From positions 3,401 through 67,400 of the forward strand of contig CAYZQO010000020.1 of NCBI GenBank assembly GCA_964480725.1: 64,000 nucleotides of DNA. The letters run 5' to 3'. The first letter of the stretch is position 1, and each line of letters opens with the position of its first letter. The position numbers and the translations under genes are program-made. The notes beneath the pieces were generated by a model that did not search any database, was not told the origin of the DNA, and was given only the letters and a program-made list of their open reading frames with translations. This document shows, piece by piece, positions 1 through 18,607 of this stretch. Origin of the DNA: an uncultured Polyangiaceae bacterium. Its GTDB lineage: Bacteria; Myxococcota_A; Polyangia; Polyangiales; Polyangiaceae.

Positions 1-674
1 CCCGGAAGGTTGGCCGCGAGGACCACCTCGGGCGCCTGGAGGTGGTGGTTCACGACCAGCGGCGCGACGCGGAAGACCACTCTATCGCTGCCACTGCTGC
101 CGTCCGCCTCGACGCGGAGGCGGACCTCGAGCACCCCGTTCCAGACGGAGGGGTCACGGACGACGTCGGTGGCCTCGAGGCCGAGTTCGATGCCGCTACG
201 CAGCGCCGCACGGTCGAGCGGCTCCCCCGCGCCGAGCGCGACGGGCTCGACGCCATCGAGGCGAAAGATCCGGCCCCTCTCGGCGGGGCTCACGCTGACG
301 AAGGCGCGCGCGCCCCGCGGCGCGTCCGGCCAGGACGAGACGAAGACGGGCGCGAGGTCCGCGCGATCATCGGCACCGTTGACGACCTCGTCCGCGGCGT
401 CACTGCAGTTGTCGAGGTCCGGGTCGGGAATGGTCGAGTCGGCGCGGCAGGCCCCGAGGTCGTCGTCGAGGTTGGCGAGCACGGTGGCACCGCGCACGGC
501 GGTCCACTCGTCCTCTCCCGCCTCGTCGGCGCCGCCCGGGGGCGCGACGACGCCGTCGCGGTCAACATCGGCCCGCAGGTCAGCGGGCAGCCCGGCCTCG
601 TGCCCTCCGCAAGCGCTCCCCCCGAGGAGCAGCGCCGCGAGCAGCGGGGTGGGAAGCAGACGGAGCGAGCGCAC
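1..674 (-). CDS. Putative lipoprotein, N-terminal part only (gene runs off the left edge); possibly a protein-arginine-deiminase (PAD)-family N-terminus
   Basis: Absent from the ORF track because there is no stop inside the window. The minus-strand frame is open from GTG 674-672 to position 1, with G/C-rich third positions. VRSLRLLPTPLLAALLLGGSAC is a lipoprotein signal peptide with a lipobox. The motif ADLRADVDRDGVV..EDEWTAVRGATVLANLDDD recalls bacterial PAD-family proteins (from memory, unverified). Confidence 0.45.
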   Translation of the reverse strand, partial: MRSLRLLPTPLLAALLLGGSACGGHEAGLPADLRADVDRDGVVAPPGGADEAGEDEWTAVRGATVLANLDDDLGACRADSTIPDPDLDNCSDAADEVVNGADDRADLAPVFVSSWPDAPRGARAFVSVSPAERGRIFRLDGVEPVALGAGEPLDRAALRSGIELGLEATDVVRDPSVWNGVLEVRLRVEADGSSGSDRVVFRVAPLVVNHHLQAPEVVLAANLP

Positions 675-9899: not shown

Positions 9900-10181
9900 G
9901 TGACGCCGCCGGGTAGTAGCAGTCGCACACCTGACGCGGCGTTCGCAAGGCATAACCGCCGGCGCGCCGAGCCCGGCACCCCGGAGCGGTCGCGGGCGCT
10001 GCGCGGGCCGCGCCCGCCCATCGCGCCTCGCGCGGGCGGGAGGGCGCATGCGGCTTGTCGGGTGCGAGGCGCACCGTCACGGCCGCACGGCCTCCTTGCC
10101 TCTCCCGGCGGCTCCCTGGCAGCATGGCCCTGGACCGCCCGCTCGACCGCTACCGGGGAGCGCCGCCGCATCCGGAAGACC

Positions 10182-11219
10182 ATGCGTCCCTCCGCCCCGC
10201 TCGCTCGCGCCCTCGCCCTCCTCGCCATCGGCATCACCGCGGCCAGCTGCCAGCGCCAGCCTTCGCCACCGCCCCCCGCCGCGAGCGCCTCCGGCACCGC
10301 TAGCGCTCCCGTGGCGAGCGCTCCCGTGGCGAGTGTGAGCGCGCCCCCGGACCCGTCGGGGGCGGTGGCCGCGGCCCCGCCCGCGGTGAGGGCCGACCCT
10401 TCGCGCTACGCCTGGCTCGCCGACACCTCGCGCAGCGCCGTGCCGGCGGTGACGACGCTCGCCGAGGCGATCCCCACGCCCCCCGGTTGGGACCGGGTCG
10501 CGGCGCCCGCCGGCTCCTTCGGCGCGTGGCTCCGCGATCTGCCGCTGGCAGCCCCCGGCACGCCGGTCAAGAGCTGGCGCGGCGAGGAGGTCTTCGCCGG
10601 CGACGAAGATTACGTGCAGGCGGTGCTCGCGATCGACGTCGGTAAGGCCGATCTCCAACAGAGCGCGGACGTCATCCTCCGCTTCGACGCGGAGTGGCGC
10701 TGGTCGCAGGGCAAACGCGACATGGCTTACCTCGCGGCGACCAAGGATCCGCTGCCGTACGCCAGTTACGCGCAGGGCAAGCGCGTGCTCGCCCAGGGCC
10801 CGCACCTGTACTGGGTCAAGCAGCGAGAGCCGACCGATCCCAACGATCGCGGGGCGTTCCGCGACTACCTCGACACGGTCTTCATCTGGGCCAACAGCAC
10901 CGCCGTCCGGATGCAGAGCGACCCGGTGCCAGCCAAGGAGCTGGCCCCGGGCGACTTCTTCCTGCAGCGCGACAAGACCGGACACGCTCTGGTGGTGCTC
11001 GACGTGGTGGCCAAACCGACCGGCGAGCGGCTCGCGCTGCTCGGCCAGGCGCTGACGGAGGCGATGAACATCCACGTCCTTCGACCGGGCCGAGGCACCG
11101 CCTGGTTTAGCCTGAACCCCCCCGAACCGCTGCTCACACCCCACACCAAGGCGTTCGCTTGGACCGACCTGCGCCGGCTTCGCCCCGTGACGCCGGACGC
11201 CGCCGCGGGCGGTGAGTGA
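10182..11219 (+). CDS. Hypothetical lipoprotein
   Basis: In-frame ATG 10182 gives MRPSAPLARALALLAIGITAASC (lipobox), then an Ala/Pro/Ser linker and a globular domain. I recognised no catalytic motif. Confidence 0.65.
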   Translation: MRPSAPLARALALLAIGITAASCQRQPSPPPPAASASGTASAPVASAPVASVSAPPDPSGAVAAAPPAVRADPSRYAWLADTSRSAVPAVTTLAEAIPTPPGWDRVAAPAGSFGAWLRDLPLAAPGTPVKSWRGEEVFAGDEDYVQAVLAIDVGKADLQQSADVILRFDAEWRWSQGKRDMAYLAATKDPLPYASYAQGKRVLAQGPHLYWVKQREPTDPNDRGAFRDYLDTVFIWANSTAVRMQSDPVPAKELAPGDFFLQRDKTGHALVVLDVVAKPTGERLALLGQALTEAMNIHVLRPGRGTAWFSLNPPEPLLTPHTKAFAWTDLRRLRPVTPDAAAGGE

Positions 11220-11396
11220 GCCCCCGCGCCGTCCCTCGCCGGGCGCCAATGAAAAAAGTCACTTGACTTGGGCGGTGGGTGCCTCCCAGACTCCCTGACG
11301 CCGATGGCCCGAGCCGCCAACCCCGACTGCCCGCGCACCGCGATTCCGCGGCGCGACGTGTTGGTCGTGCGGTCTACCGCGGTCGCTTCGGCGCCC

Positions 11397-11492
11397 GTGC
11401 GCGCGCCCGGTGGCGAGCGCCCCCTGGGCGTCGTCCTTCTCGGTGTCCTGCTGCTCGGGGTACTTATTACCCCGGGTGCGGCGGCCGCCTGA
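11397..11492 (+). CDS. Putative Leu/Val/Ile-rich leader peptide of the ilv-leu operon (start uncertain: GTG 11397 or ATG 11304)
   Basis: The ORF ends at TGA 11490-92. Codons 11424-11468 read L G V V L L G V L L L G V L I, including the rare codons CTT, GTA and ATT. It lies immediately upstream of an intrinsic terminator and of ilvB. Confidence 0.5.
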   Translation: MRAPGGERPLGVVLLGVLLLGVLITPGAAAA

Positions 11493-11521
11493 CGAGCACG
11501 AGCGAAATCGAGTCTCTCCGG

Positions 11522-11555
11522 CCCCCGCACCCGAACCACGGTGCGGGGGTTTTTT
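11522..11555 (+). terminator. Intrinsic terminator (attenuator) in the ilvB leader
   Basis: CCCCCGCACC (11522-31), an 8-nt loop, then GGTGCGGGGG (11540-49) followed by TTTTTTGGTTTATT. It lies 67 nt upstream of the ilvB ATG. Confidence 0.75.
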
Positions 11556-11622
11556 GGTTTATTGCCCGCCCCTGCCACATTCCCCGCTCCACACCTTGGA
11601 TCCTTCACCGCGAGACCGAGCC

Positions 11623-13425
11623 ATGTCGCTACCGAGCACCGATGCCCCGGCCCCCGCCGAGTCCACCCGGTCCCAGACCCTGACCGGCGCCCAGATCCTC
11701 TGGGCGACCCTGGTCCGGGAGGGGGTAGAGGTCGTCTTCGGGTACCCCGGGGGCGCCATCATGCCGGCCTACGACGCGCTGCCGCAGTTCCCCGAGCTGC
11801 GCCACGTGCTCTCCCGACACGAGCAGGGTGCGGCCCACATGGCGGATGGATACGCACGGGCCTCGGGCCGCGTCGGCGTCGCCGTGGCCACCTCCGGCCC
11901 CGGCGCGACCAACCTGGTGACGGGCATCGCGAACGCCATGCTCGACTCGATCCCGGTGGTCTTCATCACCGGTCAGGTCGCCTCGCACCTGCTCGGCACG
12001 GACGCCTTCCAGGAGGTCGACATCACGGGCGTGACCCTGCCCATCACCAAGCACAACTTCCTGGTCACGCGCCCCGCGGACATCGCGCCGACGCTCCGCC
12101 AGGCGTTCTACATCGCGCGCTCGGGTCGGCCGGGACCGGTCGTGGTCGACATCACCAAGGACGCGCAACAGAAGAGCGCGGAGGTCGTCTGGGAGCAGAC
12201 CCCGGTGCGGCTGCCGGGCTATCGCCCGGAGCGCCACCCCCGCGACGACGAGTACGCGCTGGCGCTGCGAATGATCGCCGAGGCCGAGCGCCCGGTCATC
12301 TTCTGCGGCCACGGCGTGATCGACGCGAACGCCACCGACGTGCTCCGCCAGGTCGTGGAGAAGACCGACATCCCGGTGGCGCAGACGCTGCTCGGCCTCG
12401 GCGGATTCCCCGCCAGTCACTCCCACAGCCTGGGCATGATGGGCATGCACGGCGAGCAGTGGGTGAACACCGCGATCCAGGAGGCGGACCTCGTCATCGC
12501 CCTCGGGATGCGCTTCGACGACCGCGTGACGGGCAACCTCAAGACGTACACCGCCAAGGCGCGCAAGATCCACGTCGAGCTCGACCCCGCCGAGGTCGGC
12601 AAGAACGTCAGGGTCGACCTGCCCCTGATCGGCGACGTGGGCGAGATCCTCGCCCACCTGCTGCCGCGGGTGTCAGCGCGAAAGCTGCCCGCCTGGTGGG
12701 CGCAGATCCGCGCGAATCGGGGCGCCGCCGCCGTGCGCGACATCATCGAGCTCCCCGACGCGGGGCGGCTGTACGCGGCCCACGTCATCCACGACCTGTG
12801 GCGCCTGACCGAGGGCAAAGCGCTGGTGGTGACCGACGTGGGCCAGCACCAGATGTGGGAGGCCCAGTACTACCACCACGACCGCCCGCGGCGGCTGATC
12901 ACCTCCGGCGGCCTCGGCACCATGGGCTTCTCCCTACCGGCCGCCATCGGGGCCAAGCTCGCCTGCCCGGACGACGAGGTCTGGGTCATCGTCGGTGACG
13001 GCGGGATCCAGATGACCCAGGCGGAGCTGCAGACCGCGCGTCAGGACGCGGTCAAGGTGAACGTGGCCATCATGAACAATGGATTTCTGGGCATGGTGCG
13101 CCAGTGGCAGGAGTTCTTCCACGAGGGCCGCTACGTCTGCACGCCGATCACCAGCCCGGACTTCGTCAAGCTGGCCGAGGCCCACGGTCTGCTCGGCCTT
13201 CGCGTCACCCGCCGCGACCAGATCGCGGACGCCGTCGCCCAGGCCCGGGCCAGCGCCGTCACCACGGTGATCGATTTTCGCGTCGAGCAGGAGGACAGCG
13301 TCTATCCGATGGTCCCGACCGGGGCCGACCTGGGCGACATGATCCTGCGCCCGCTCCCCACCGACTCCTCCCCTCCGGAGGGAGAAGAACACAACCCGAT
13401 CTACGAAACCGGAAAGGATCGCTGA
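11623..13425 (+). CDS. ilvB: Acetolactate synthase (acetohydroxy-acid synthase) large subunit
   Basis: The start is ATG 11623 inside track ORF 11410..13425. It has TGAQILWATLVREGVEVVFGYPGGAIMPAYDAL, the ThDP motif GLGTMGFSLPAAIGAK...GDGG and MNNGFLGMVRQWQ. Confidence 0.95.
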   Translation: MSLPSTDAPAPAESTRSQTLTGAQILWATLVREGVEVVFGYPGGAIMPAYDALPQFPELRHVLSRHEQGAAHMADGYARASGRVGVAVATSGPGATNLVTGIANAMLDSIPVVFITGQVASHLLGTDAFQEVDITGVTLPITKHNFLVTRPADIAPTLRQAFYIARSGRPGPVVVDITKDAQQKSAEVVWEQTPVRLPGYRPERHPRDDEYALALRMIAEAERPVIFCGHGVIDANATDVLRQVVEKTDIPVAQTLLGLGGFPASHSHSLGMMGMHGEQWVNTAIQEADLVIALGMRFDDRVTGNLKTYTAKARKIHVELDPAEVGKNVRVDLPLIGDVGEILAHLLPRVSARKLPAWWAQIRANRGAAAVRDIIELPDAGRLYAAHVIHDLWRLTEGKALVVTDVGQHQMWEAQYYHHDRPRRLITSGGLGTMGFSLPAAIGAKLACPDDEVWVIVGDGGIQMTQAELQTARQDAVKVNVAIMNNGFLGMVRQWQEFFHEGRYVCTPITSPDFVKLAEAHGLLGLRVTRRDQIADAVAQARASAVTTVIDFRVEQEDSVYPMVPTGADLGDMILRPLPTDSSPPEGEEHNPIYETGKDR

Positions 13426-14003
13426 TGACCCCCGGCAACGGCAACCATAGCCCACGGACCAACGACGGCCGCCCCCTGCGGACGTTCGTGGCCTACGTCG
13501 AGGATCAGCCCGGCGTCCTCAACCGCATCGCGTCCCTGTTCCGCCGACGGGGCTACAACATCGCCTCGCTCAACGTCGGGCGCACGCACGAGCCCGGCAT
13601 CTCGCGACTGACGATGGTGGTCGAGGCCGACGAGACGACCGCGCGGCTGCTGGAGGCGAACCTGTACAAGCTGGTCAACGTGATCAGCGTCGAGGACCTC
13701 ACCCACCGCGCCAGCGTCGTCCGCGACCTCGCCCTGGTCAAGGTGCGGACCGTGGCGGAAGACCGCGCCGAGGTGCTGCAGATCGCCGAGCGGTTCCGCG
13801 CCCGAGTCATCGACGTCGGCGACGAGACGATGGTCTTTGAGATGACCGGGACCCAGGACGCGATCGGGGAGTTCCTATCGTACCTGCGCCCGTTCGGCAT
13901 CGTCGAGATGGTCCAGACCGGCGCCGTCGCGATGGCGCGCGGCGGCGAGGGTGGCGCCTCCGCCTCCGCGCACCGACCCAGCCTGCTGCCCCCACCTCCG
14001 TGA
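13425..14003 (+). CDS. ilvN: Acetolactate synthase small (regulatory) subunit
   Basis: The start has an ATGA overlap with the ilvB stop. It has the ACT domain LRTFVAYVEDQPGVLNRIASLFRRRGYNIASLNVG and LYKLVNVISVEDL. Confidence 0.9.
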   Translation: MTPGNGNHSPRTNDGRPLRTFVAYVEDQPGVLNRIASLFRRRGYNIASLNVGRTHEPGISRLTMVVEADETTARLLEANLYKLVNVISVEDLTHRASVVRDLALVKVRTVAEDRAEVLQIAERFRARVIDVGDETMVFEMTGTQDAIGEFLSYLRPFGIVEMVQTGAVAMARGGEGGASASAHRPSLLPPPP

Positions 14004-15739
14004 ACACCGATGGCGTCCCGTCACCCGACGGGCCAGCCCTGGAGAAGATCGAGATGACCACCGAAACCATGCCACGTCCCCCCGAGCAATACGTCCGCAT
14101 GTTCGACACGACGCTCCGCGACGGCGAGCAGTCGCCGGGCGCGACCCTGACGTCCGAAGAGAAGCTCGAGGTGGCCCTGGCGCTCTCCCGTCTGGGGGTC
14201 GACGCCATCGAGGCGGGGTTCCCGGCGGCGTCGGACGACGATCTCTTCGCGGTCCAGACCATCGCGGAGCGGGTCGGCGCCACGGTGATCGAGGGGCGCC
14301 CGAGCCAGCACCCGCCGATCATCTGCGGCCTGGCGCGCGCCCGGGAGGCCGATATCCAGCGCGCCTGGGAGGGGGTCCGCCTGGCCAAGTACCCGCGCAT
14401 CCACACCTTCATCGCCACTTCGCCCATCCATCGCGAGCACAAGCTGCGCATGACGCGGGAGCAGGTGCTGGCCAAGACCCGGGAGATGGTGACCTTCGCC
14501 CGGACCCTCTGCCCGGACGTCGAGTTCAGCCCCGAGGATGCCGGCCGCACCGAGCCGGAGTTCCTGTACGAAGTCCTCGCGCTCGCCATCGAGTGCGGCG
14601 CCACCACGCTGAACATCCCCGACACCGTGGGATACACGCTGCCACACGAGTTCGGCGCCCTGATTTCCGGCATCAGGCAGCACGTTCCCGGCGTCGACCG
14701 GGCCATCATCTCCACCCACTGTCACAACGATCTGGGGCTGGCCACGGCCAACACCCTGGCCGGGATCCTGGCCGGCGCGCGGCAGGCGGAGGTCACGGTC
14801 AACGGGCTCGGGGAGCGGGCTGGCAACTGCGCCATCGAGGAGATCGTAATGGCGCTGCGAACCCGGCGGCTCGCCCTGCAGCTGGACACCGGCATCGACA
14901 CCACGCAGCTGACGCGAGCCAGCAAGCTCGTCAGCATGCGGACGGGCATCAGCGTCCAGGCCAACAAGGCCATCGTCGGCGCCAACGCCTTCGCACACGA
15001 GTCGGGGATCCACCAGGACGGGATGCTGAAACACGAGGAGACGTACGAGATCATGCGCCCGGAGACGGTGGGCGCAGTCAAGACCCGTCTGGTCATGGGC
15101 AAGCACTCCGGGCGCCACGCCTTCGCGGTGCGACTGCGCGAGCTGGGCCACTCCCTGGAGGACACCGCGCTCGAGAAGGCGTTCGCCCGGTTCAAGACGC
15201 TGGCCGACAAGAAGAAGTCGATCACCGACGCAGACCTGGAGGCGCTGGCCGAGGCCGAGGCCGAGGGGCGCGAGGAGTTCTTCGCGCTGGAGGCGCTGAA
15301 GGTGAACTGCGGCAGCCGGGGGCCGGCCACGGCCCTGGTCTGCCTCAAGGGCCCCGACGGCGTCGTCACCAACGAGGGCGAGGGGACGGGGCCGGTCGAC
15401 GCCGTCTTCAAGGCCATCGACGCCCTGGTGCAGGCCCCGAGCGAGCTGCTTGAGTACTCGGTGCACGCGGTGACGGAGGGCATCGACGCGCTGGGCCAGG
15501 TCAGCGTGCGGGTCGCTGCGCGCGGCGAGGATTCCAAGCCCAACCCGCAGTACGAGCACTCGCAGCCGCGCATCTTCTACGGGCACGGCGCGGAGACGGA
15601 CATCATCGCGGCGAGCGCCAAGGCCTACGTGGCGGCGCTGAATCGCCTGCTCGGGGCGCTCCAGCCCGAGCACCGGCGGCGAATGCCGAGCGTCGCGCCC
15701 GCGTCGAAGGACGCGGAGACGACGGAAGACCGAGGTTGA
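14000..15739 (+). CDS. leuA: 2-isopropylmalate synthase
   Basis: VRMFDTTLRDGEQSPGATL, HCHNDLGLATANTLAG and a C-terminal LeuA dimerisation/regulatory domain are present. GTG 14000 overlaps the ilvN stop (GTGA). ATG 14054 is an alternative start. Confidence 0.9.
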   Translation: MNTDGVPSPDGPALEKIEMTTETMPRPPEQYVRMFDTTLRDGEQSPGATLTSEEKLEVALALSRLGVDAIEAGFPAASDDDLFAVQTIAERVGATVIEGRPSQHPPIICGLARAREADIQRAWEGVRLAKYPRIHTFIATSPIHREHKLRMTREQVLAKTREMVTFARTLCPDVEFSPEDAGRTEPEFLYEVLALAIECGATTLNIPDTVGYTLPHEFGALISGIRQHVPGVDRAIISTHCHNDLGLATANTLAGILAGARQAEVTVNGLGERAGNCAIEEIVMALRTRRLALQLDTGIDTTQLTRASKLVSMRTGISVQANKAIVGANAFAHESGIHQDGMLKHEETYEIMRPETVGAVKTRLVMGKHSGRHAFAVRLRELGHSLEDTALEKAFARFKTLADKKKSITDADLEALAEAEAEGREEFFALEALKVNCGSRGPATALVCLKGPDGVVTNEGEGTGPVDAVFKAIDALVQAPSELLEYSVHAVTEGIDALGQVSVRVAARGEDSKPNPQYEHSQPRIFYGHGAETDIIAASAKAYVAALNRLLGALQPEHRRRMPSVAPASKDAETTEDRG

Positions 15740-15815
15740 TCCCGCGGCTGCCGCGCGGACCGTCCGCGCGGCGCTGCCCCCCGCTCCCCACCCCCGCTCG
15801 CGAGGCTCGCCGAAC

Positions 15816-17507
15816 ATGGCCGCAGATCCCGCCGTCGTATCCCCCCCGAACCGCGTCTCCGTCTACGACACCACGCTGCGTGACGGCACCCAGGGCGAGG
15901 GCGTGTCGATCACGGCACGGGACAAGCTCCGCATCGCCCAGCGCCTCGACGAGCTCGGGGTCGCCTTCGTCGAGGGGGGCTGGCCCGGGTCGAACCCCAA
16001 GGACGCCGAGTTCTTCCAGCGCGCACGCGACGTGAGCTGGCAGAGCGCGATCGTCACCGCGTTCGGCGCCACCCGGCGCGCCAAGCTCGGTTCCGACGAG
16101 GACGCCAGTATCCGGGCGCTGCTCGACTCCGGCGCCGCCGTCTGCACCATCTTCGGCAAGTCCTGGACGCTCCATGTCAAGGACGTGCTCCGGATCGGCC
16201 TCGACGAGAACCTGCGCATGATCGAGGAGACGGTCGCGCACCTGGTCCGGAGCGGCCGGCGGGTGATCTACGACGCCGAGCACTTCTTCGATGGCCACGC
16301 CACCGACCCCGCCTACGCCCTGGAGACGTTGCGAGCCGCTCAGCGCGGTGGCGCCGAGGTCCTGGTCCTCTGCGACACCAACGGGGGCAGCCTCCCCTGG
16401 CAGGTGGAGAGGATCGTCGGGGAGATCGGGCGAGCCCTCGGCCACCCGCTAGGGATCCACGCCCACGACGACACCGGCTGCGCGGTGGCGAACAGCCTCG
16501 CTGCGGTGCAGGCTGGCGCCCGCCACGTCCAGGGGACGATCAACGGGCTCGGCGAGCGCTGCGGCAACGCGAACCTCAGCGTGGTGATCCCGAACCTAGA
16601 GCTCAAGCTCGATCTGCGCTGCCTGCCCGAGGGGCGCCTGCGCGAGATCGGCGAGGTTTCTCGCTTCGTCGCCGAGGTCACCAACCACGCCCTCGGAGAG
16701 CAGATGCCCTACGTCGGGCGCAGCGCCTTCGCCCACAAGGCGGGGGTCCACGTTTCGGCGATGCGCCGCCATGGCGCGAGCTACCAGCACGTGGATCCGG
16801 CGCGGGTCGGCAACACCATGCGCGTCCTCGTCAGTGAGCTGTCGGGACGCGCCAACGTGCTCAGCAAGGCCGAAGAGCTCGGAGAGGTGCTCTCGGCGGG
16901 CGTGGAGGACGAGGCCGTGCAGGCGATCAAGGAGGCGGAGGCTCGCGGCATGTCCTACGAGGGCGCCGAGGCGAGCGTGGCGCTGCTGTTGCGCCGCCGC
17001 CGACCCGACTACCAGCCCCCGTTCTCGGTGCTCGACTACAAGGCGGAGGTCGGGCGTCGCCAGGGCACGGAAACCTTCGCCGAGGCCACGGTGAAGCTCC
17101 AGGTGGGGCACGAAGTGATGCACACCGTCGCCGAAGGCAACGGGCCGGTGGCCGCGCTCGACGCGGCGCTCCGCAAGGCGATGACGCCACTCTACCCGGC
17201 CATCGAGCACATCCACCTGGCGGATTACAAGGTCCGGATCCTCGACAGCCTGGGGGGCACCGAGGCGGTGACGCGGGTGCTCATCGACTTCACGGACCGG
17301 CACGGCGCCTGGAGCACGGTCGGTGCCTCGCCCAACATCATCGAGGCGTCGCTGCAGGCGGTGCTGGAGGGGATCGAGTGGGGCCTGCTCCGCACCGGCA
17401 CCGGGCCGGTGGCGCTGAACCCCGACGACGCCCTGGTGCGGTCCGTCCGCGGGCGTCCATCCGAACCGCCCCCCCGGGCGGCGAGGGATGACCACCCGAC
17501 CGAATGA
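15816..17507 (+). CDS. cimA: (R)-citramalate synthase-type IPMS paralogue
   Basis: VSVYDTTLRDGTQGEGVSITARDKLRIAQRLDELGVAFVEGGWPGSNPKDAEFF matches the CimA-type (Geobacter/Leptospira-like) N-terminus rather than the LeuA type. It has HAHDDTGCAVANSLAAV and a C-terminal LeuA-allosteric-like domain. Confidence 0.75.
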   Translation: MAADPAVVSPPNRVSVYDTTLRDGTQGEGVSITARDKLRIAQRLDELGVAFVEGGWPGSNPKDAEFFQRARDVSWQSAIVTAFGATRRAKLGSDEDASIRALLDSGAAVCTIFGKSWTLHVKDVLRIGLDENLRMIEETVAHLVRSGRRVIYDAEHFFDGHATDPAYALETLRAAQRGGAEVLVLCDTNGGSLPWQVERIVGEIGRALGHPLGIHAHDDTGCAVANSLAAVQAGARHVQGTINGLGERCGNANLSVVIPNLELKLDLRCLPEGRLREIGEVSRFVAEVTNHALGEQMPYVGRSAFAHKAGVHVSAMRRHGASYQHVDPARVGNTMRVLVSELSGRANVLSKAEELGEVLSAGVEDEAVQAIKEAEARGMSYEGAEASVALLLRRRRPDYQPPFSVLDYKAEVGRRQGTETFAEATVKLQVGHEVMHTVAEGNGPVAALDAALRKAMTPLYPAIEHIHLADYKVRILDSLGGTEAVTRVLIDFTDRHGAWSTVGASPNIIEASLQAVLEGIEWGLLRTGTGPVALNPDDALVRSVRGRPSEPPPRAARDDHPTE

Positions 17508-17518
17508 GGAATCCATCC

Positions 17519-18607
17519 ATGAAGGCCAACATCGTCCTGTTGCCGGGTGACGGCATCGGCCCCGAAATCGTCGCTGAGGCGCGCCGGGTGCTCGAGCGCG
17601 TCGCCGAGCTCTTCGGCCACGAGTTCGCGTTCGACACCCACCGGGTCGGGGGCGCCGCCATCGATGCCGGCGGGATCCCGCTCACCGAGGCGACGCTGGC
17701 AGCGTGCCGCACCGCCGACGCCATCCTGCTCGGGGCGGTCGGCGGGCCGCGCTGGGACGATCCGACGGCGCCGGTGCGGCCCGAGCAAGGGCTGTTCACG
17801 CTCCGGGCGGAGCTGAACCTGTACGCGAACATCCGCCCGGTGCGCGCCTTCCCCGAGCTCGCCGCGCACGGTTCTCCGCTGCGCCCGGAGCGCGTGAGCG
17901 GGGTGGACATCCTGATGGTGCGGGAGCTCACGGGGGGGCTCTACTTCGGTGAGCCGCGGCGATCCGAGGTGGTGGCGGGCGAGCGGTGCGCCGTGGACAC
18001 GATGCGCTACAGCGAGACGGAGATCCGGCGGGTCGCCCGGCGCGCCTTCGAGATCGCGCGGACCCGCCGCCGCCAGGTCACCTCGGTCGACAAGGCCAAT
18101 GTCCTCGCCTGCTCGCGGCTGTGGCGGCAGGTCGTCAGCGAGGTCGCGGCGGATTACCCCGACGTGGCGCTCGAGCACCAGCTCGTCGACTCCTGCGCGA
18201 TGCGCCTGGTCACCAACCCCACCAGCCTCGACGTGATCCTGACGGAGAACCTCTTCGGCGACATCCTGTCCGACGAGGCGGCGGTCATCACCGGTTCGCT
18301 CGGGATGCTGCCGAGCGCATCGCTGGGAGACGGCCCGCGCGGACTCTACGAGCCCATCCACGGGTCCGCCCCCGACATCGCGGGGCGAGGCGTCGCCAAC
18401 CCGCTCGGCACCGTGCTCAGCGCGGCGCTCCTGCTCCGAGACAGCCTCAGGCTCGACCGGGAGGCGGCGGCGGTGGAGCGGGCCGTGGCCCAGGCGATCG
18501 CGGGAGGCGCGCGTACGGCCGACCTCGGGGGCGGCGAGGGTGCCCTGTCCACACGCGCAATGGGGGACGCCGTGCTCGAGCGGCTGACGCGCCCCGCGGC
18601 CGCGTGA
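17519..18607 (+). CDS. leuB: 3-isopropylmalate dehydrogenase
   Basis: MKANIVLLPGDGIGPEIV, NLYANIRP and NLFGDILSDEAAVITGSLGMLPSAS are present. A GAGGA SD lies 8 nt upstream of ATG 17519. ATG 17504 (ATGA overlap with cimA) is an alternative start. Confidence 0.93.
   Translation: MKANIVLLPGDGIGPEIVAEARRVLERVAELFGHEFAFDTHRVGGAAIDAGGIPLTEATLAACRTADAILLGAVGGPRWDDPTAPVRPEQGLFTLRAELNLYANIRPVRAFPELAAHGSPLRPERVSGVDILMVRELTGGLYFGEPRRSEVVAGERCAVDTMRYSETEIRRVARRAFEIARTRRRQVTSVDKANVLACSRLWRQVVSEVAADYPDVALEHQLVDSCAMRLVTNPTSLDVILTENLFGDILSDEAAVITGSLGMLPSASLGDGPRGLYEPIHGSAPDIAGRGVANPLGTVLSAALLLRDSLRLDREAAAVERAVAQAIAGGARTADLGGGEGALSTRAMGDAVLERLTRPAAA

What the first reader, a model, noticed from the sequence alone, without database searches (positions are those of the whole stretch)
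11263..11622. Leader-peptide transcription attenuator (Leu/Val/Ile codon run + antiterminator/terminator switch) upstream of ilvBN-leuA-cimA-leuB
Seen in sequence, within a 403-nt leader: (i) A short ORF ends at TGA 11490-92. In it, 12 of 15 consecutive codons (11424-11468) encode Leu x7, Val x4 and Ile x1 (LGVVLLGVLLLGVLI), and it uses codons that are rare in this GC-rich DNA (CTT x2, GTA, ATT). (ii) A canonical intrinsic terminator follows: CCCCCGCACC 11522-31, an 8-nt loop, GGTGCGGGGG 11540-49, then TTTTTTGGTTTATT. I noticed no other U-tailed terminator of this quality in the window. (iii) CGGGTGCGG (11473-81, the last codons of the leader ORF) is perfectly complementary to CCGCACCCG (11525-33, the 5' arm of the terminator). 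The two helices are therefore mutually exclusive, and the upstream strand would be occluded by a ribosome that reaches the stop codon. Established knowledge: this is the logic of the enterobacterial ilvBN, ilvGMEDA and leu attenuators. Inference: branched-chain amino-acid supply controls read-through into an operon that makes all three amino acids. To my knowledge this mechanism has not been characterised in Myxococcota. Which start codon the leader uses (ATG 11304 or GTG 11397) is unclear, and no good SD is visible.
Basis: partly seen in the sequence, partly recalled or inferred. Interest (0 to 1): 0.65.

Follow-up and report, generated by a model that had tools for sequence, protein, structure and literature searches.

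The report
Branched-chain amino-acid leader-peptide attenuator
A short upstream reading frame full of rare Leu/Val/Ile codons, followed by competing antiterminator and terminator hairpins, most likely lets this myxobacterium transcribe its ilvBN-leuA-cimA-leuB operon only when those amino acids run short. The mechanism is classical, but this conserved and apparently leaderless family is not catalogued.

Summary

Comparative data support the interpretation.
- 21 related genome loci, mostly Myxococcota, and 55 of 57 metagenome model matches keep the same layout. That layout is a TTGAC promoter, an ORF starting 33-43 nt after it, a run of regulatory codons, an antiterminator strand at the ORF end, and a U-tailed terminator.
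- The elements always lie upstream of, and co-oriented with, amino-acid biosynthesis genes.
- The regulatory codons track the downstream pathway: Val/Leu/Ile before ilvB and ilvD, Leu before leuA, Ile before cimA, Thr before thrA, Phe/Tyr before DAHP synthase.
- The conserved GGUGCGG strand is read in all three frames, so it is conserved as RNA.
- Rare codons (CTT, GTA, ATT) are strongly enriched.

- The leader starts at ATG 11304 and is leaderless or nearly so, which explains the missing Shine-Dalgarno sequence.
- A covarying 1:2 hairpin completes a trp-like four-segment design.
- In a folding model, only ribosomes stalled at 11448-11462 favour the antiterminator.

No Rfam family matches, and I found no paper on Myxococcota. 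No transcript or starvation data exist.

Verdict: a real attenuator and a new member of a known kind. Confidence about 0.8.

The parts
11263..11268 (+). -35 box TTGACT of the leader promoter
   Evidence: TTGAC at an equivalent position in 75 of 76 leaders examined (all 22 from the window and genome loci). Conserved block between the window and its closest relative L001. The consensus promoter scan did not call it because the -10 is weak.
11287..11292 (+). -10-like hexamer CAGACT (18-nt spacer); inferred
   Evidence: A at position 2 and T at position 6. Relatives have CACACT, CAGAGT, CACAAT, CAGAAT, TAGGGT, TATAAT and similar at the same place. It ends 11 nt before ATG 11304, so the 5' UTR is predicted to be about 0-5 nt. 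No TSS data.
11304..11492 (+). Leader-peptide ORF, 62 codons plus TGA: MARAANPDCPRTAIPRRDVLVVRSTAVASAPVRAPGGERPLGVVLLGVLLLGVLITPGAAAA*
   Evidence: In 64 of 76 leaders the first in-frame ATG or GTG lies 33-43 nt after the TTGAC box and opens the frame that ends at the antiterminator. The N-terminal part is not conserved.
11424..11468 (+). Regulatory codon run LGVVLLGVLLLGVLI (7 Leu, 4 Val, 1 Ile) with rare CTT x2, GTA and ATT
   Evidence: Family-wide enrichment of rare codons: CTT 33% vs 2%, GTA 21% vs 2%, ATT 68% vs 8% in leaders vs IlvB coding sequences of the same loci.
11448..11462 (+). Codons (CTG CTG CTC GGG GTA) at which a stalled ribosome favours the antiterminator in the folding model
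   Evidence: With a 28-nt mask (A site -15 to +12) on RNA 11304-11556, P(antiterminator) is 0.58-0.82 and P(terminator) 0.17-0.41. At all other tested positions and without a ribosome, P(terminator) is 0.93-0.98. Model result, not an experiment.
11453..11477 (+). Hairpin 1:2 (5' arm 11453-62, loop CUUAU 11463-67, 3' arm 11468-77). Its 3' arm overlaps the antiterminator strand by 5 nt
   Evidence: -16.7 kcal/mol; in the MFE of 11390-11560. In the 16-sequence alignment, 6 of 7 pairs change on both sides. Stems differ among relatives while the AU-rich loop is kept.
11473..11487 (+). Segment 2: 5' strand of the antiterminator (CGGGUGCGG, C mismatch, GGCCG), covering the last codons of the leader ORF
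   Evidence: The core GGUGCGG is read in three different frames across the family (PGAAAA*, GCGPP*, EVRPA*), so it is conserved as RNA.
11490..11492 (+). Leader stop codon TGA, 9 nt after the core antiterminator strand
   Evidence: In the family the stop begins 9-24 nt after the first base of GGTGCGG, so a terminating ribosome would cover that strand in nearly all members.
11519..11533 (+). Segment 3: shared strand (CGGCC C CCGCACCCG). It pairs with segment 2 in the antiterminator or with segment 4 in the terminator
   Evidence: It stays CCCCGCACC in L002, L003 and L005, where the terminator 3' arm has a mismatch. L004 has a compensatory GCGA / UCGC change.
11520..11563 (+). Intrinsic terminator: stem 11520-31 / 11540-51, loop 11532-39, then the tail TTTTGGTTTATT (11552-63). 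The first two T of the TTTTTT run (11550-51) pair in the stem
   Evidence: 95% of cells paired and 4 of 10 pairs with both-side changes in the 16-sequence alignment.
11623..18607 (+). Regulated operon: ilvB 11623-13425, ilvN 13419-14003, leuA 14000-15739, cimA 15816-17507, leuB 17504-18607
   Evidence: NCBIfam TIGR00118, NF008864/TIGR00119, NF002086/TIGR00973, TIGR00977 and TIGR00169, all above their cut-offs. ORFs.

Best explanation
This is a ribosome-mediated (leader-peptide) transcription attenuator controlling ilvBN-leuA-cimA-leuB.

Proposed mechanism:
- Transcription starts a few nucleotides before, or at, ATG 11304. The 62-codon leader is translated without a Shine-Dalgarno sequence (inferred).
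- If charged Leu, Val or Ile tRNAs are scarce, the ribosome stalls in the codon run. The effective sites are about 11448-11462. The stall holds the 5' arm of hairpin 1:2 open and leaves strand 11473-87 free.
- That strand pairs with 11519-33 as soon as it is transcribed. The terminator cannot form, and RNA polymerase reads into ilvB.
- If the tRNAs are abundant, the ribosome runs on to TGA 11490 and covers strand 11473-87. Then 11520-31 pairs with 11540-51 and transcription stops at the U-run, at about 11555-60.
- Without translation, hairpin 1:2 plus the terminator form, and transcription also stops.

Shown here: the sequence elements, their conservation, covariation, the match between codons and pathway, and folding energetics. 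Inferred: the transcription start, translation of the leader, premature termination and the response to starvation.
For: 1. All elements are present and exceed chance.

2. Conservation.
- 13 further ilvB loci show promoter, ORF, branched-chain codon run, complementary strand at the ORF end and U-tailed terminator.
- A covariance model built from 10 leaders finds one hit in the window (100 bits). It also finds leaders 1-2 kb upstream of ilvB, in front of ilvD or an ilvC-like gene, in 6 more loci.
- Most Acidobacteriota and other loci in the same set of 80 lack a detectable element.

3. A gene-blind DNA pattern scan of metagenomes gave 57 model matches.
- 55 of them lie upstream of, and co-oriented with, amino-acid biosynthesis genes.
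- The nearest IlvB of the ilvB/ilvD-type contigs is myxococcal, at 69-92% identity.

4. The regulatory residue tracks the pathway.
- leuA leaders: Leu fraction 0.39.
- ilvB leaders: Val fraction 0.21.
- cimA leaders: Ile fraction 0.23.
- thrA leader: Thr fraction 0.50 (TTTTTSVTTTAT).
- DAHP synthase leader: FYFYF.

5. GGUGCGG is read in all three frames, so it is an RNA element.

6. Leaders with different terminators carry matching antiterminator strands.
- L071: 0 of 245 other windows as good. L018: 0 of 544. L017: 9 of 349.
- L004 has a compensatory G-C to A-U change.

7. Hairpin 1:2 and the terminator covary. 86.5% of cells are paired, against 78.1 +/- 1.4 in shuffles and 34-54% in slid controls. 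10 pairs change on both sides.

8. Ribosome-mask folding.
- Sequestration of the terminator 5' arm drops at the last Leu/Ile codon in most of the 14 leaders; the drop is weak or absent in L001, L007 and L048.
- In the window, the antiterminator is favoured only with the A site at 11448-11462.

9. Rare codons are enriched 8- to 16-fold in the regulatory stretch.

10. A 96%-identical relative seen in other runs changes Pro to Leu just before the run, makes a synonymous Leu change within it, and changes a terminator loop base.

11. Experimentally supported analogues exist for ilvB in C. glutamicum (leaderless leader peptide; PMC11857589) and M. tuberculosis (PMC13236596).
Against: - There are no transcript data: no mapped start, no short terminated RNA, no starvation response. 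The only RNA hint is a 169-nt compost metatranscriptome contig covering 11363-11531, which proves little.
- In S. coelicolor a similar-looking ilvB leader did not behave as a classical attenuator when its codons were mutated (reported in PMC1262725).
- In the window the -10-like box ends 11 nt before the ATG. That is long for a strictly leaderless start, so a 3-5-nt UTR is likely.
- The leader is unusually long (62 codons; 37-74 in relatives), and about 40 of them are non-conserved N-terminal codons of unknown role.
- Hairpin 1:2 overlaps the antiterminator strand by only 5 nt. In transcripts truncated before the terminator 3' arm, the antiterminator forms even without a ribosome (0.91). The basal state therefore depends on kinetics that were not modelled.
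- In the equilibrium model many family members never leave the terminator state.
- The core helix is invariant, and in the metagenome set it was fixed by the search pattern, so it gives no covariation. Tests at free flanking positions are mixed: x1:y1 and z3:w-1 are supported, x2-x4 are not.
- Antiterminator complementarity is weak in L010 and L009.
Confidence: 0.82

Rival explanations
1. The structure is attenuator-like, but the switch is set by something other than ribosome stalling at Leu/Val/Ile codons. Candidates are a protein, an RNA-polymerase pausing factor, ppGpp or Rho. The ORF would then be incidental or serve only to couple translation.
For: There is a precedent. Mutating the candidate regulatory codons of the S. 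coelicolor ilvB leader had no effect (PMC1262725). The equilibrium model leaves many family members in the terminator state whatever the ribosome position. No functional data exist here.
Against: The identity of the enriched codons follows the downstream pathway (Leu, Val, Ile, Thr, Phe/Tyr) on an otherwise constant chassis. That is hard to explain unless the codons are what is sensed. Rare synonymous codons are selected. The position of the run relative to the antiterminator strand is conserved. No riboswitch or T-box model matches.
Confidence: 0.1
2. The ORF encodes a functional small hydrophobic (membrane) peptide with its own promoter and terminator. Regulation of ilvB is a by-product of read-through.
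For: The C-terminal half (LGVVLLGVLLLGVLI) looks like a transmembrane segment. The ORF is long for a leader peptide. Trans-acting leader peptides are known (peTrpL; PMC7298713, listed).
Against: The N-terminal sequence and the length are not conserved. The conserved 3' motif is read in three frames. Family members have Thr-rich or FYFYF runs that are not membrane-like. The element is always tied to amino-acid biosynthesis genes. A dual role cannot be excluded.
Confidence: 0.05
3. Chance: an ordinary promoter, a GC-rich open frame and the terminator of the upstream gene happen to lie together.
For: Open frames are frequent in GC-rich DNA. 23% of control TTGAC sites are followed at +33..43 by an ATG or GTG that stays open for at least 37 codons.
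Against: The terminator lies downstream of the conserved promoter. It is the only canonical terminator in 64 kb. The architecture recurs in 76 leaders whose upstream sequences differ among the loci compared and whose downstream genes are always biosynthetic. The statistics exclude chance.
Confidence: 0.02

Closest known systems
Enterobacterial ilvGMEDA (ilvL) and ilvBN (ivbL) leader-peptide attenuators (from established knowledge, not tested here)
   Same: A leader ORF with a mixed Leu/Val/Ile (ilvL) or Val/Leu (ivbL) codon run. Mutually exclusive antiterminator and terminator hairpins. A stop codon placed so that a terminating ribosome blocks the antiterminator. Multivalent control of branched-chain amino-acid genes.
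   Different: No sequence or Rfam relationship. The leader here is 62 codons rather than 32. No Shine-Dalgarno sequence, and probably a leaderless start. A different operon content (ilvBN-leuA-cimA-leuB). A different phylum.
E. coli/Salmonella leu operon leader (Rfam Leu_leader RF00512)
   Same: Rare synonymous Leu codons are used as sensors. Leaders of this family in front of leuA and leuC are Leu-rich.
   Different: The Rfam model does not match the window or 15 family loci. Here the run mixes three amino acids.
Corynebacterium glutamicum ilvBNC attenuator (Morbach et al. 2000; PMC11857589)
   Same: An ilvB leader peptide translated without a ribosome-binding site, with the transcription start 1 nt from the start codon. 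A three-hairpin model (anti-antiterminator, antiterminator, terminator). Ile/Val/Leu codons.
   Different: A 15-residue peptide against 62. Actinobacteria. An unrelated sequence. That system has experimental support; this one has none.
Mycobacterium tuberculosis ilvB1NC attenuator (PMC13236596) and mycobacterial leaderless poly-Cys sORF attenuators (10.1101/834739)
   Same: A branched-chain-rich upstream ORF (LVVI) with antiterminator and terminator alternatives and an abundant short terminated transcript. Leaderless short ORFs acting as amino-acid sensors in a GC-rich genome.
   Different: A different phylum and sequence. The Cys systems act on translation rather than through an intrinsic terminator.
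Streptomyces coelicolor ilvB and leuA leaders (as discussed in PMC1262725)
   Same: A GC-rich genome, a candidate leader peptide with branched-chain codons, and a terminator.
   Different: There, codon mutations had no effect. This is a caution that resemblance does not prove mechanism. The codon-pathway correspondence across many operons seen here was not available there.

Membership tests
Classical ribosome-mediated (leader-peptide) transcription attenuator | Short ORF inside the 5' leader of a biosynthetic operon | tested here: met
   ORF 11304-11492 lies between the promoter box at 11263 and ilvB at 11623. It is longer (62 codons) than classical examples.
Classical ribosome-mediated (leader-peptide) transcription attenuator | Leader ORF enriched in codons for the end product(s) of the regulated pathway | tested here: met
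   12 of 15 codons are Leu/Val/Ile. Across the family the enriched residue matches the downstream gene: Leu-leuA, Ile-cimA, Thr-thrA, Phe/Tyr-DAHP synthase.
Classical ribosome-mediated (leader-peptide) transcription attenuator | Intrinsic terminator between the leader ORF and the first structural gene | tested here: met
   12-bp stem plus U-run at 11520-11563. Present in all 14 first-set leaders.
Classical ribosome-mediated (leader-peptide) transcription attenuator | Antiterminator helix mutually exclusive with the terminator | tested here: met
   11473-87 pairs with 11519-33 and shares 11520-31 with the terminator. It is maintained with changed sequences in L004, L018, L071 and L017. It is weak in L010 and L009.
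Classical ribosome-mediated (leader-peptide) transcription attenuator | Geometry: a ribosome at the stop codon covers the antiterminator strand, and a ribosome at the regulatory codons leaves it free | tested here: met
   The stop is 9 nt after the core strand. The mask model gives the antiterminator only for an A site at 11448-11462. A boundary at the last Leu/Ile codon is seen in most of the 14 leaders and is weak or absent in L001, L007 and L048. This is a model, not a measurement.
Classical ribosome-mediated (leader-peptide) transcription attenuator | Leader ORF is actually translated | not testable with these tools
   Only indirect evidence. The in-frame start is at a conserved distance from the promoter in 64 of 76 leaders, and the reading frame is preserved.
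Classical ribosome-mediated (leader-peptide) transcription attenuator | Prematurely terminated leader transcript, with read-through increased by starvation for the cognate amino acids | not testable with these tools
   No suitable RNA runs. Only assembled contigs of related strains were available.
Rfam leader families (Leu_leader, Thr_leader, His_leader, Trp_leader and others) and T-box or riboswitch families | Match to the family covariance model | tested here: not met
   No relevant match at E up to 10 in window 10500-12500. No match at gathering score in 15 family loci, 119 kb.
Leaderless leader peptides (actinobacterial ilvB type) | Transcription start at or within a few nt of the leader start codon, with no SD | tested here: inconclusive
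   Spacing from TTGAC to the start codon is 33-43 nt in 64 of 76 leaders. Many have 6-7 nt between the -10 box and the ATG. The control rate is 23-35% in any frame. In the window the gap is 11 nt, so a 3-5-nt UTR is likely. No TSS data.

The most novel reading that the evidence does not exclude
One modular attenuator cassette may have been re-used by swapping only the regulatory codons. The cassette consists of a leaderless ORF, an AU-loop hairpin, and the invariant GGUGCGG / CCCCGCACC / GGUGCGGGG switch. It would control branched-chain (ilvB, ilvD, ilvC, leuA, leuCD, cimA), threonine (thrA), aromatic (DAHP synthase) and perhaps methionine genes across Myxococcota and other, unassigned lineages. 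More divergent leaders of the same architecture occur at ilv operons of Acidobacteriota and Chloroflexota MAGs. This would be an uncatalogued RNA family and a natural codon-swap experiment for attenuation with leaderless translation.
Probability: 0.5. Interest if true: 0.62.

Novelty: new member of a known kind. Interest (0 to 1): 0.5.

Why it matters
- It extends classical leader-peptide attenuation to Myxococcota. Intrinsic terminators look rare in this GC-rich DNA (one in 64 kb here), and I found no published description of such regulation in the phylum.
- It defines a conserved, searchable family that is absent from Rfam. The family would improve annotation of many soil and bioreactor genomes. 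The leader ORFs would otherwise be called hypothetical proteins or missed.
- The shared chassis with swapped codons gives unusually clean comparative evidence that codon identity is the sensed signal.
- The likely leaderless start offers a system for asking how transcription-translation coupling is synchronised without a ribosome-binding site.
- For strain engineering of myxobacterial producers, deleting the terminator would be an obvious way to deregulate branched-chain precursor supply.

Tried and rejected
- Rfam scans of the window region and of 15 family loci found nothing relevant.
- The consensus sigma-70 scan called no promoter in 5-24 kb. The promoter was recognised only by conservation.
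- Search for RNA evidence. DNA runs hold the window at 99%. The 'RNA' runs hold only a 96% relative as assembled contigs that cross the promoter and the terminator, plus one 169-nt leader-only metatranscriptome contig. No ends or depths are usable.
- MAFFT and model-based alignments put the GGUGCGG strand out of register between subgroups. I therefore did not run pair counts for the antiterminator on them. I used per-sequence duplex energies with nulls and free-position tests instead.
- Those free-position tests were mixed. x1:y1 and z3:w-1 pair more often than shuffles. x2-x4 do not, so the helix does not extend inward in most members.
- Full-length equilibrium folding with a ribosome mask is informative for the window and for about 40% of the leaders. 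It leaves the rest in the terminator state, so it is not a general test.
- My first simple terminator scan missed leaders with bulged stems (L003, L005, L048, L071) and leaders lying further upstream. This was corrected by the covariance model.
- Rejected readings: terminator of the upstream gene, T-box or riboswitch, chance ORF (see rivals).
- Six literature searches found no description for Myxococcota or Deltaproteobacteria.
Full report
**Observation**

- The frame opened by ATG 11304 runs 62 codons to TGA 11490-92.
- Codons 11424-11468 encode LGVVLLGVLLLGVLI. The run includes CTT twice, GTA and ATT.
- Each of those codons makes up only 0.9-1.5% of its synonymous family in the five operon genes. 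Four or more rare codons among 12 has P about 8e-4.
- A 15-residue window with at least 12 Leu/Ile/Val occurs in 4 of 105,199 windows of all six-frame open stretches of the window.
- The terminator (12-bp stem 11520-31 / 11540-51, 8-nt loop, T-run) was found by the scan tool. It is the only canonical U-tailed terminator on either strand of the 64 kb.
- CGGGTGCGG 11473-81 pairs perfectly with CCGCACCCG 11525-33, and the helix extends by five pairs across a mismatch.
- It folds at -37.1 kcal/mol, against -25.3 for the terminator. No shuffle (0 of 500) and no other window of the locus (0 of 247) pairs as well.
- The downstream genes are ilvB, ilvN, leuA, citramalate synthase and leuB, identified by NCBIfam equivalog models above their cut-offs.

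- A further hairpin lies at 11453-62 / 11468-77, with loop CUUAU and an energy of -16.7 kcal/mol. Its loop holds the rare CTT ATT codons, and its 3' arm overlaps the antiterminator strand. The leader therefore has the four-segment 1:2, 2:3, 3:4 layout of the trp paradigm.
- The two global folds are close in energy. The 276-nt fold chooses the antiterminator. The 171-nt fold chooses 1:2 plus the terminator.

**Relatives in genomes**

- A search for IlvB relatives in one-genome-per-species contigs returned 80 loci. The best is an 83%-identical Polyangiaceae MAG.
- Thirteen loci show the same upstream layout as the window. Twelve are Myxococcota and one is labelled Acidobacteriota (L055). The layout is a TTGAC box, an ATG or GTG 35-42 nt later opening a 37-52-codon frame, a C-terminal Leu/Val/Ile-rich stretch, a stop next to a strand complementary to the 5' arm of a U-tailed terminator.
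- A covariance model built from ten of them finds exactly one significant hit in the window (11445-11561, 100 bits).
- The model also finds leaders 1-2 kb upstream of ilvB in six loci that I had scored as negative. There the leader precedes ilvD or an ilvC-like gene that heads the operon.
- Weaker matches with their own sequences occur in Holophagaceae, Acidiferrales and Anaerolineales MAGs.
- In most other Acidobacteriota loci of the same set neither the model nor my simple terminator scan detects an element. That scan also missed true leaders with bulged stems, so this is weaker evidence. The feature is therefore probably not a general property of GC-rich ilvB upstream regions.

**Relatives in metagenomes, found without reference to genes**

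- I scanned metagenome contigs with the pattern GGTGCGG-N30-55-CCCCGCAYC-N6-18-CGGGGNNYTT.
- 57 matched the model at E below 0.001.
- 55 of these lie upstream of, and co-oriented with, amino-acid biosynthesis genes: ilvB 10, ilvD 9, ilvC 14, leuA 17, cimA-leuB 2, leuCD-leuB 1, thrA 1, DAHP synthase 1, and a Cys/Met-family PLP enzyme 1 (groups tallied). One ilvC call (L128) rests on a short partial match.
- The two exceptions are L106, which looks like an ordinary terminator after a cold-shock-like gene, and L142, which is unclear and has no BCAA-rich leader ORF and no identifiable downstream gene.
- The ilvB/ilvD-type contigs have myxococcal nearest IlvB neighbours at 69-92% identity. The taxon of the leuA/ilvC-type leaders (GC 52-58%) is unknown.

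**The codons follow the pathway**

In the 20 codons ending six codons before the stop:
- Leaders before leuA are Leu-rich (0.39).
- Leaders before ilvB are the richest in Val (0.21, with Leu 0.24).
- Leaders before cimA are the richest in Ile (0.23; AIIITSASGLII).
- The thrA leader is half Thr (MLAFTTTTTSVTTTATHEVRPA).
- The DAHP synthase leader has FYFYF.

On an otherwise constant switch, this is what ribosome sensing of charged tRNA predicts. It is hard to explain otherwise.

**RNA-level conservation**

- The strand GGUGCGG is translated as PGAAAA in the window's subgroup, as GCGPP in another subgroup, and as EVRPA or VVREPAA in a few leaders. All three frames are used.
- The shared strand CCCCGCACC stays intact in L002, L003 and L005, where the terminator's 3' arm carries a mismatch.
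- L004 changes GCGG/CCGC to GCGA/UCGC.
- Leaders with quite different terminators have matching strands at the ORF end. For L071, 0 of 245 other windows are as good. For L018, 0 of 544. For L017, 9 of 349. For L055, 25 of 543. For L007, 32 of 544. L009, L049 and L010 are not distinguishable from background.
- On the 16-sequence model alignment, hairpin 1:2 and the terminator have 86.5% of cells paired. Shuffles give 78.1 +/- 1.4 (0 of 500 as high), and slid controls give 34-54%. Ten pairs change on both sides, six of them among the seven pairs of hairpin 1:2. That alignment was fitted to the structure, so it leans towards it.
- At positions not fixed by the search pattern the result is mixed. 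x1:y1 pairs in 34 of 68 leaders against 25.1 +/- 2.8. z3:w-1 pairs in 37 of 68 against 22.2 +/- 3.4, with U-A, G-C and C-G types. The next inner positions do not pair.

**Start codon**

- In 64 of 76 leaders the first in-frame ATG or GTG lies 33-43 nt after the first T of a TTGAC box. In many, a TAnnnT-like -10 box is followed after 6-7 nt by the ATG.
- Among 1,779 control TTGAC sites, 35% have any ATG or GTG there, and 23% have one that stays open for 37 codons in any frame.
- The leaders are therefore probably leaderless.
- In the window and its nearest relatives the gap from -10 to ATG is 11-12 nt. A 3-5-nt UTR is more likely there than a strictly leaderless RNA.
- There are no start-site data.

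**Folding model with a ribosome**

- I used a 28-nt mask (A site -15 to +12). On transcripts truncated before the terminator's 3' arm, the 5' arm is sequestered (about 0.9) until the A site reaches the last Leu/Ile codon. It then drops. This holds in most of the 14 leaders; the drop is weak or absent in L001, L007 and L048.
- On the complete window leader (11304-11556) the terminator dominates in three situations: without a ribosome, with a ribosome early in the run, and from 11463 to the stop (P 0.93-0.98).
- The antiterminator dominates only for A sites at 11448-11462 (P 0.58-0.82).
- In many other family members the equilibrium model never leaves the terminator state. This is expected for a kinetic switch, but it limits the test.

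**Rare codons**

In the regulatory stretch of 13 myxococcal leaders, CTT is 33% of Leu codons, GTA 21% of Val codons and ATT 68% of Ile codons. In the IlvB coding sequences of the same loci the figures are 2%, 2% and 8%. The motif CUU AUU or CUC AUU sits in the loop of hairpin 1:2 in most members.

**Other evidence**

- Contigs of a 96%-identical strain in other runs change the Pro codon just before the run to Leu. They also make a synonymous Leu change within the run and alter a terminator loop base.
- A 169-nt compost metatranscriptome contig covers only 11363-11531. This is compatible with an abundant leader RNA but proves nothing.

**Comparison with what is known**

- The logic is that of the enterobacterial ilvGMEDA, ilvBN and leu attenuators (established knowledge).
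- The probable leaderless start is as in the C. glutamicum ilvBNC leader (PMC11857589).
- The BCAA-rich uORF with alternative antiterminator/terminator hairpins is as in the M. tuberculosis ilvB1 attenuator (PMC13236596).
- There is no sequence relationship to those systems, and no Rfam model matches.
- Six literature searches found nothing on Myxococcota or Deltaproteobacteria.
- One caution: in S. coelicolor a similar ilvB leader was not affected by codon mutations (PMC1262725).

**Verdict**

The element is a new member, and a new sequence family, of a known kind of regulator. Its features of interest are:
- a long and probably leaderless leader ORF;
- a covarying sensor hairpin with rare codons in its loop;
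- a switch core shared by attenuators for several amino acids.

Function remains inferred until transcript ends and starvation responses are measured.

Noticed in passing
L155:485-599 on the strand opposite to the stored one (positions count on the reverse complement, as), and the downstream ORF: The same switch core with a Thr-rich leader (MLAFTTTTTSVTTTATHEVRPA*) lies directly upstream of a bifunctional aspartokinase/homoserine dehydrogenase I (NF006959, 941 bits). This looks like a threonine attenuator on the same chassis.
   Followed up: partly
L120:5363-5469 on the strand opposite to the stored one (positions count on the reverse complement, as), and the downstream ORF: The same core with leader ...SSGFYFYFTPETGRCGPPA* lies upstream of a DAHP synthase (NF006421, 431 bits). 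This looks like an aromatic amino-acid attenuator on the same chassis.
   Followed up: partly
L141:2110-2227 on the strand opposite to the stored one (positions count on the reverse complement, as): The same core with a Met/Ile/Thr-containing leader (MFRWTRTMPIVIGSMCIGAMTTGCGPPG*). It lies upstream of a Cys/Met-metabolism PLP enzyme (all matches below family cut-offs), then a panB-like gene and an aspartokinase. Specificity is unclear.
   Followed up: partly
L091, L157 (leaders before cimA-leuB): Where citramalate synthase has its own leader, the leader is Ile-rich (AIIITSASGLIIGSGAAAS*). This fits the citramalate route to isoleucine. In the window, cimA sits inside the ilvB operon with no internal match to the model.
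   Followed up: partly
window 1-64000, both strands: Only one canonical U-tailed intrinsic terminator is found in 64 kb, and it is the one inside the ilvB leader. Ordinary gene ends here evidently do not use such terminators.
   Followed up: partly
window 13419-13425, 14000-14003, 17504-17507: Start and stop codons overlap at ilvB/ilvN, ilvN/leuA and cimA/leuB. This suggests translational coupling within the operon.
   Followed up: no
L006:3753-3990: In one Polyangiaceae MAG an extra ORF of about 46 codons (MTKTDTKKPMTAQQADRMAPPLPPTREVLRRCRAERLGHRFAENMF*) lies between the attenuator terminator and ilvB.
   Followed up: no
window 10179-11219 (+): The upstream gene has a lipoprotein-like signal (MRPSAPLARALALLAIGITAASC) and no NCBIfam match. 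L001 and L003 appear to share its 3' end upstream of their leaders.
   Followed up: no
L071:863-991, L017:1957-2092, L049:2063-2172, L055:3837-3944: Loci labelled Acidobacteriota (Acidiferrales, Holophagaceae, and an unclassified MAG) and Anaerolineales also carry branched-chain leader ORFs. These have their own antiterminator/terminator sequences before ilvB or ilvD. Leader-peptide control of ilv genes therefore seems to reach beyond Myxococcota.
   Followed up: partly
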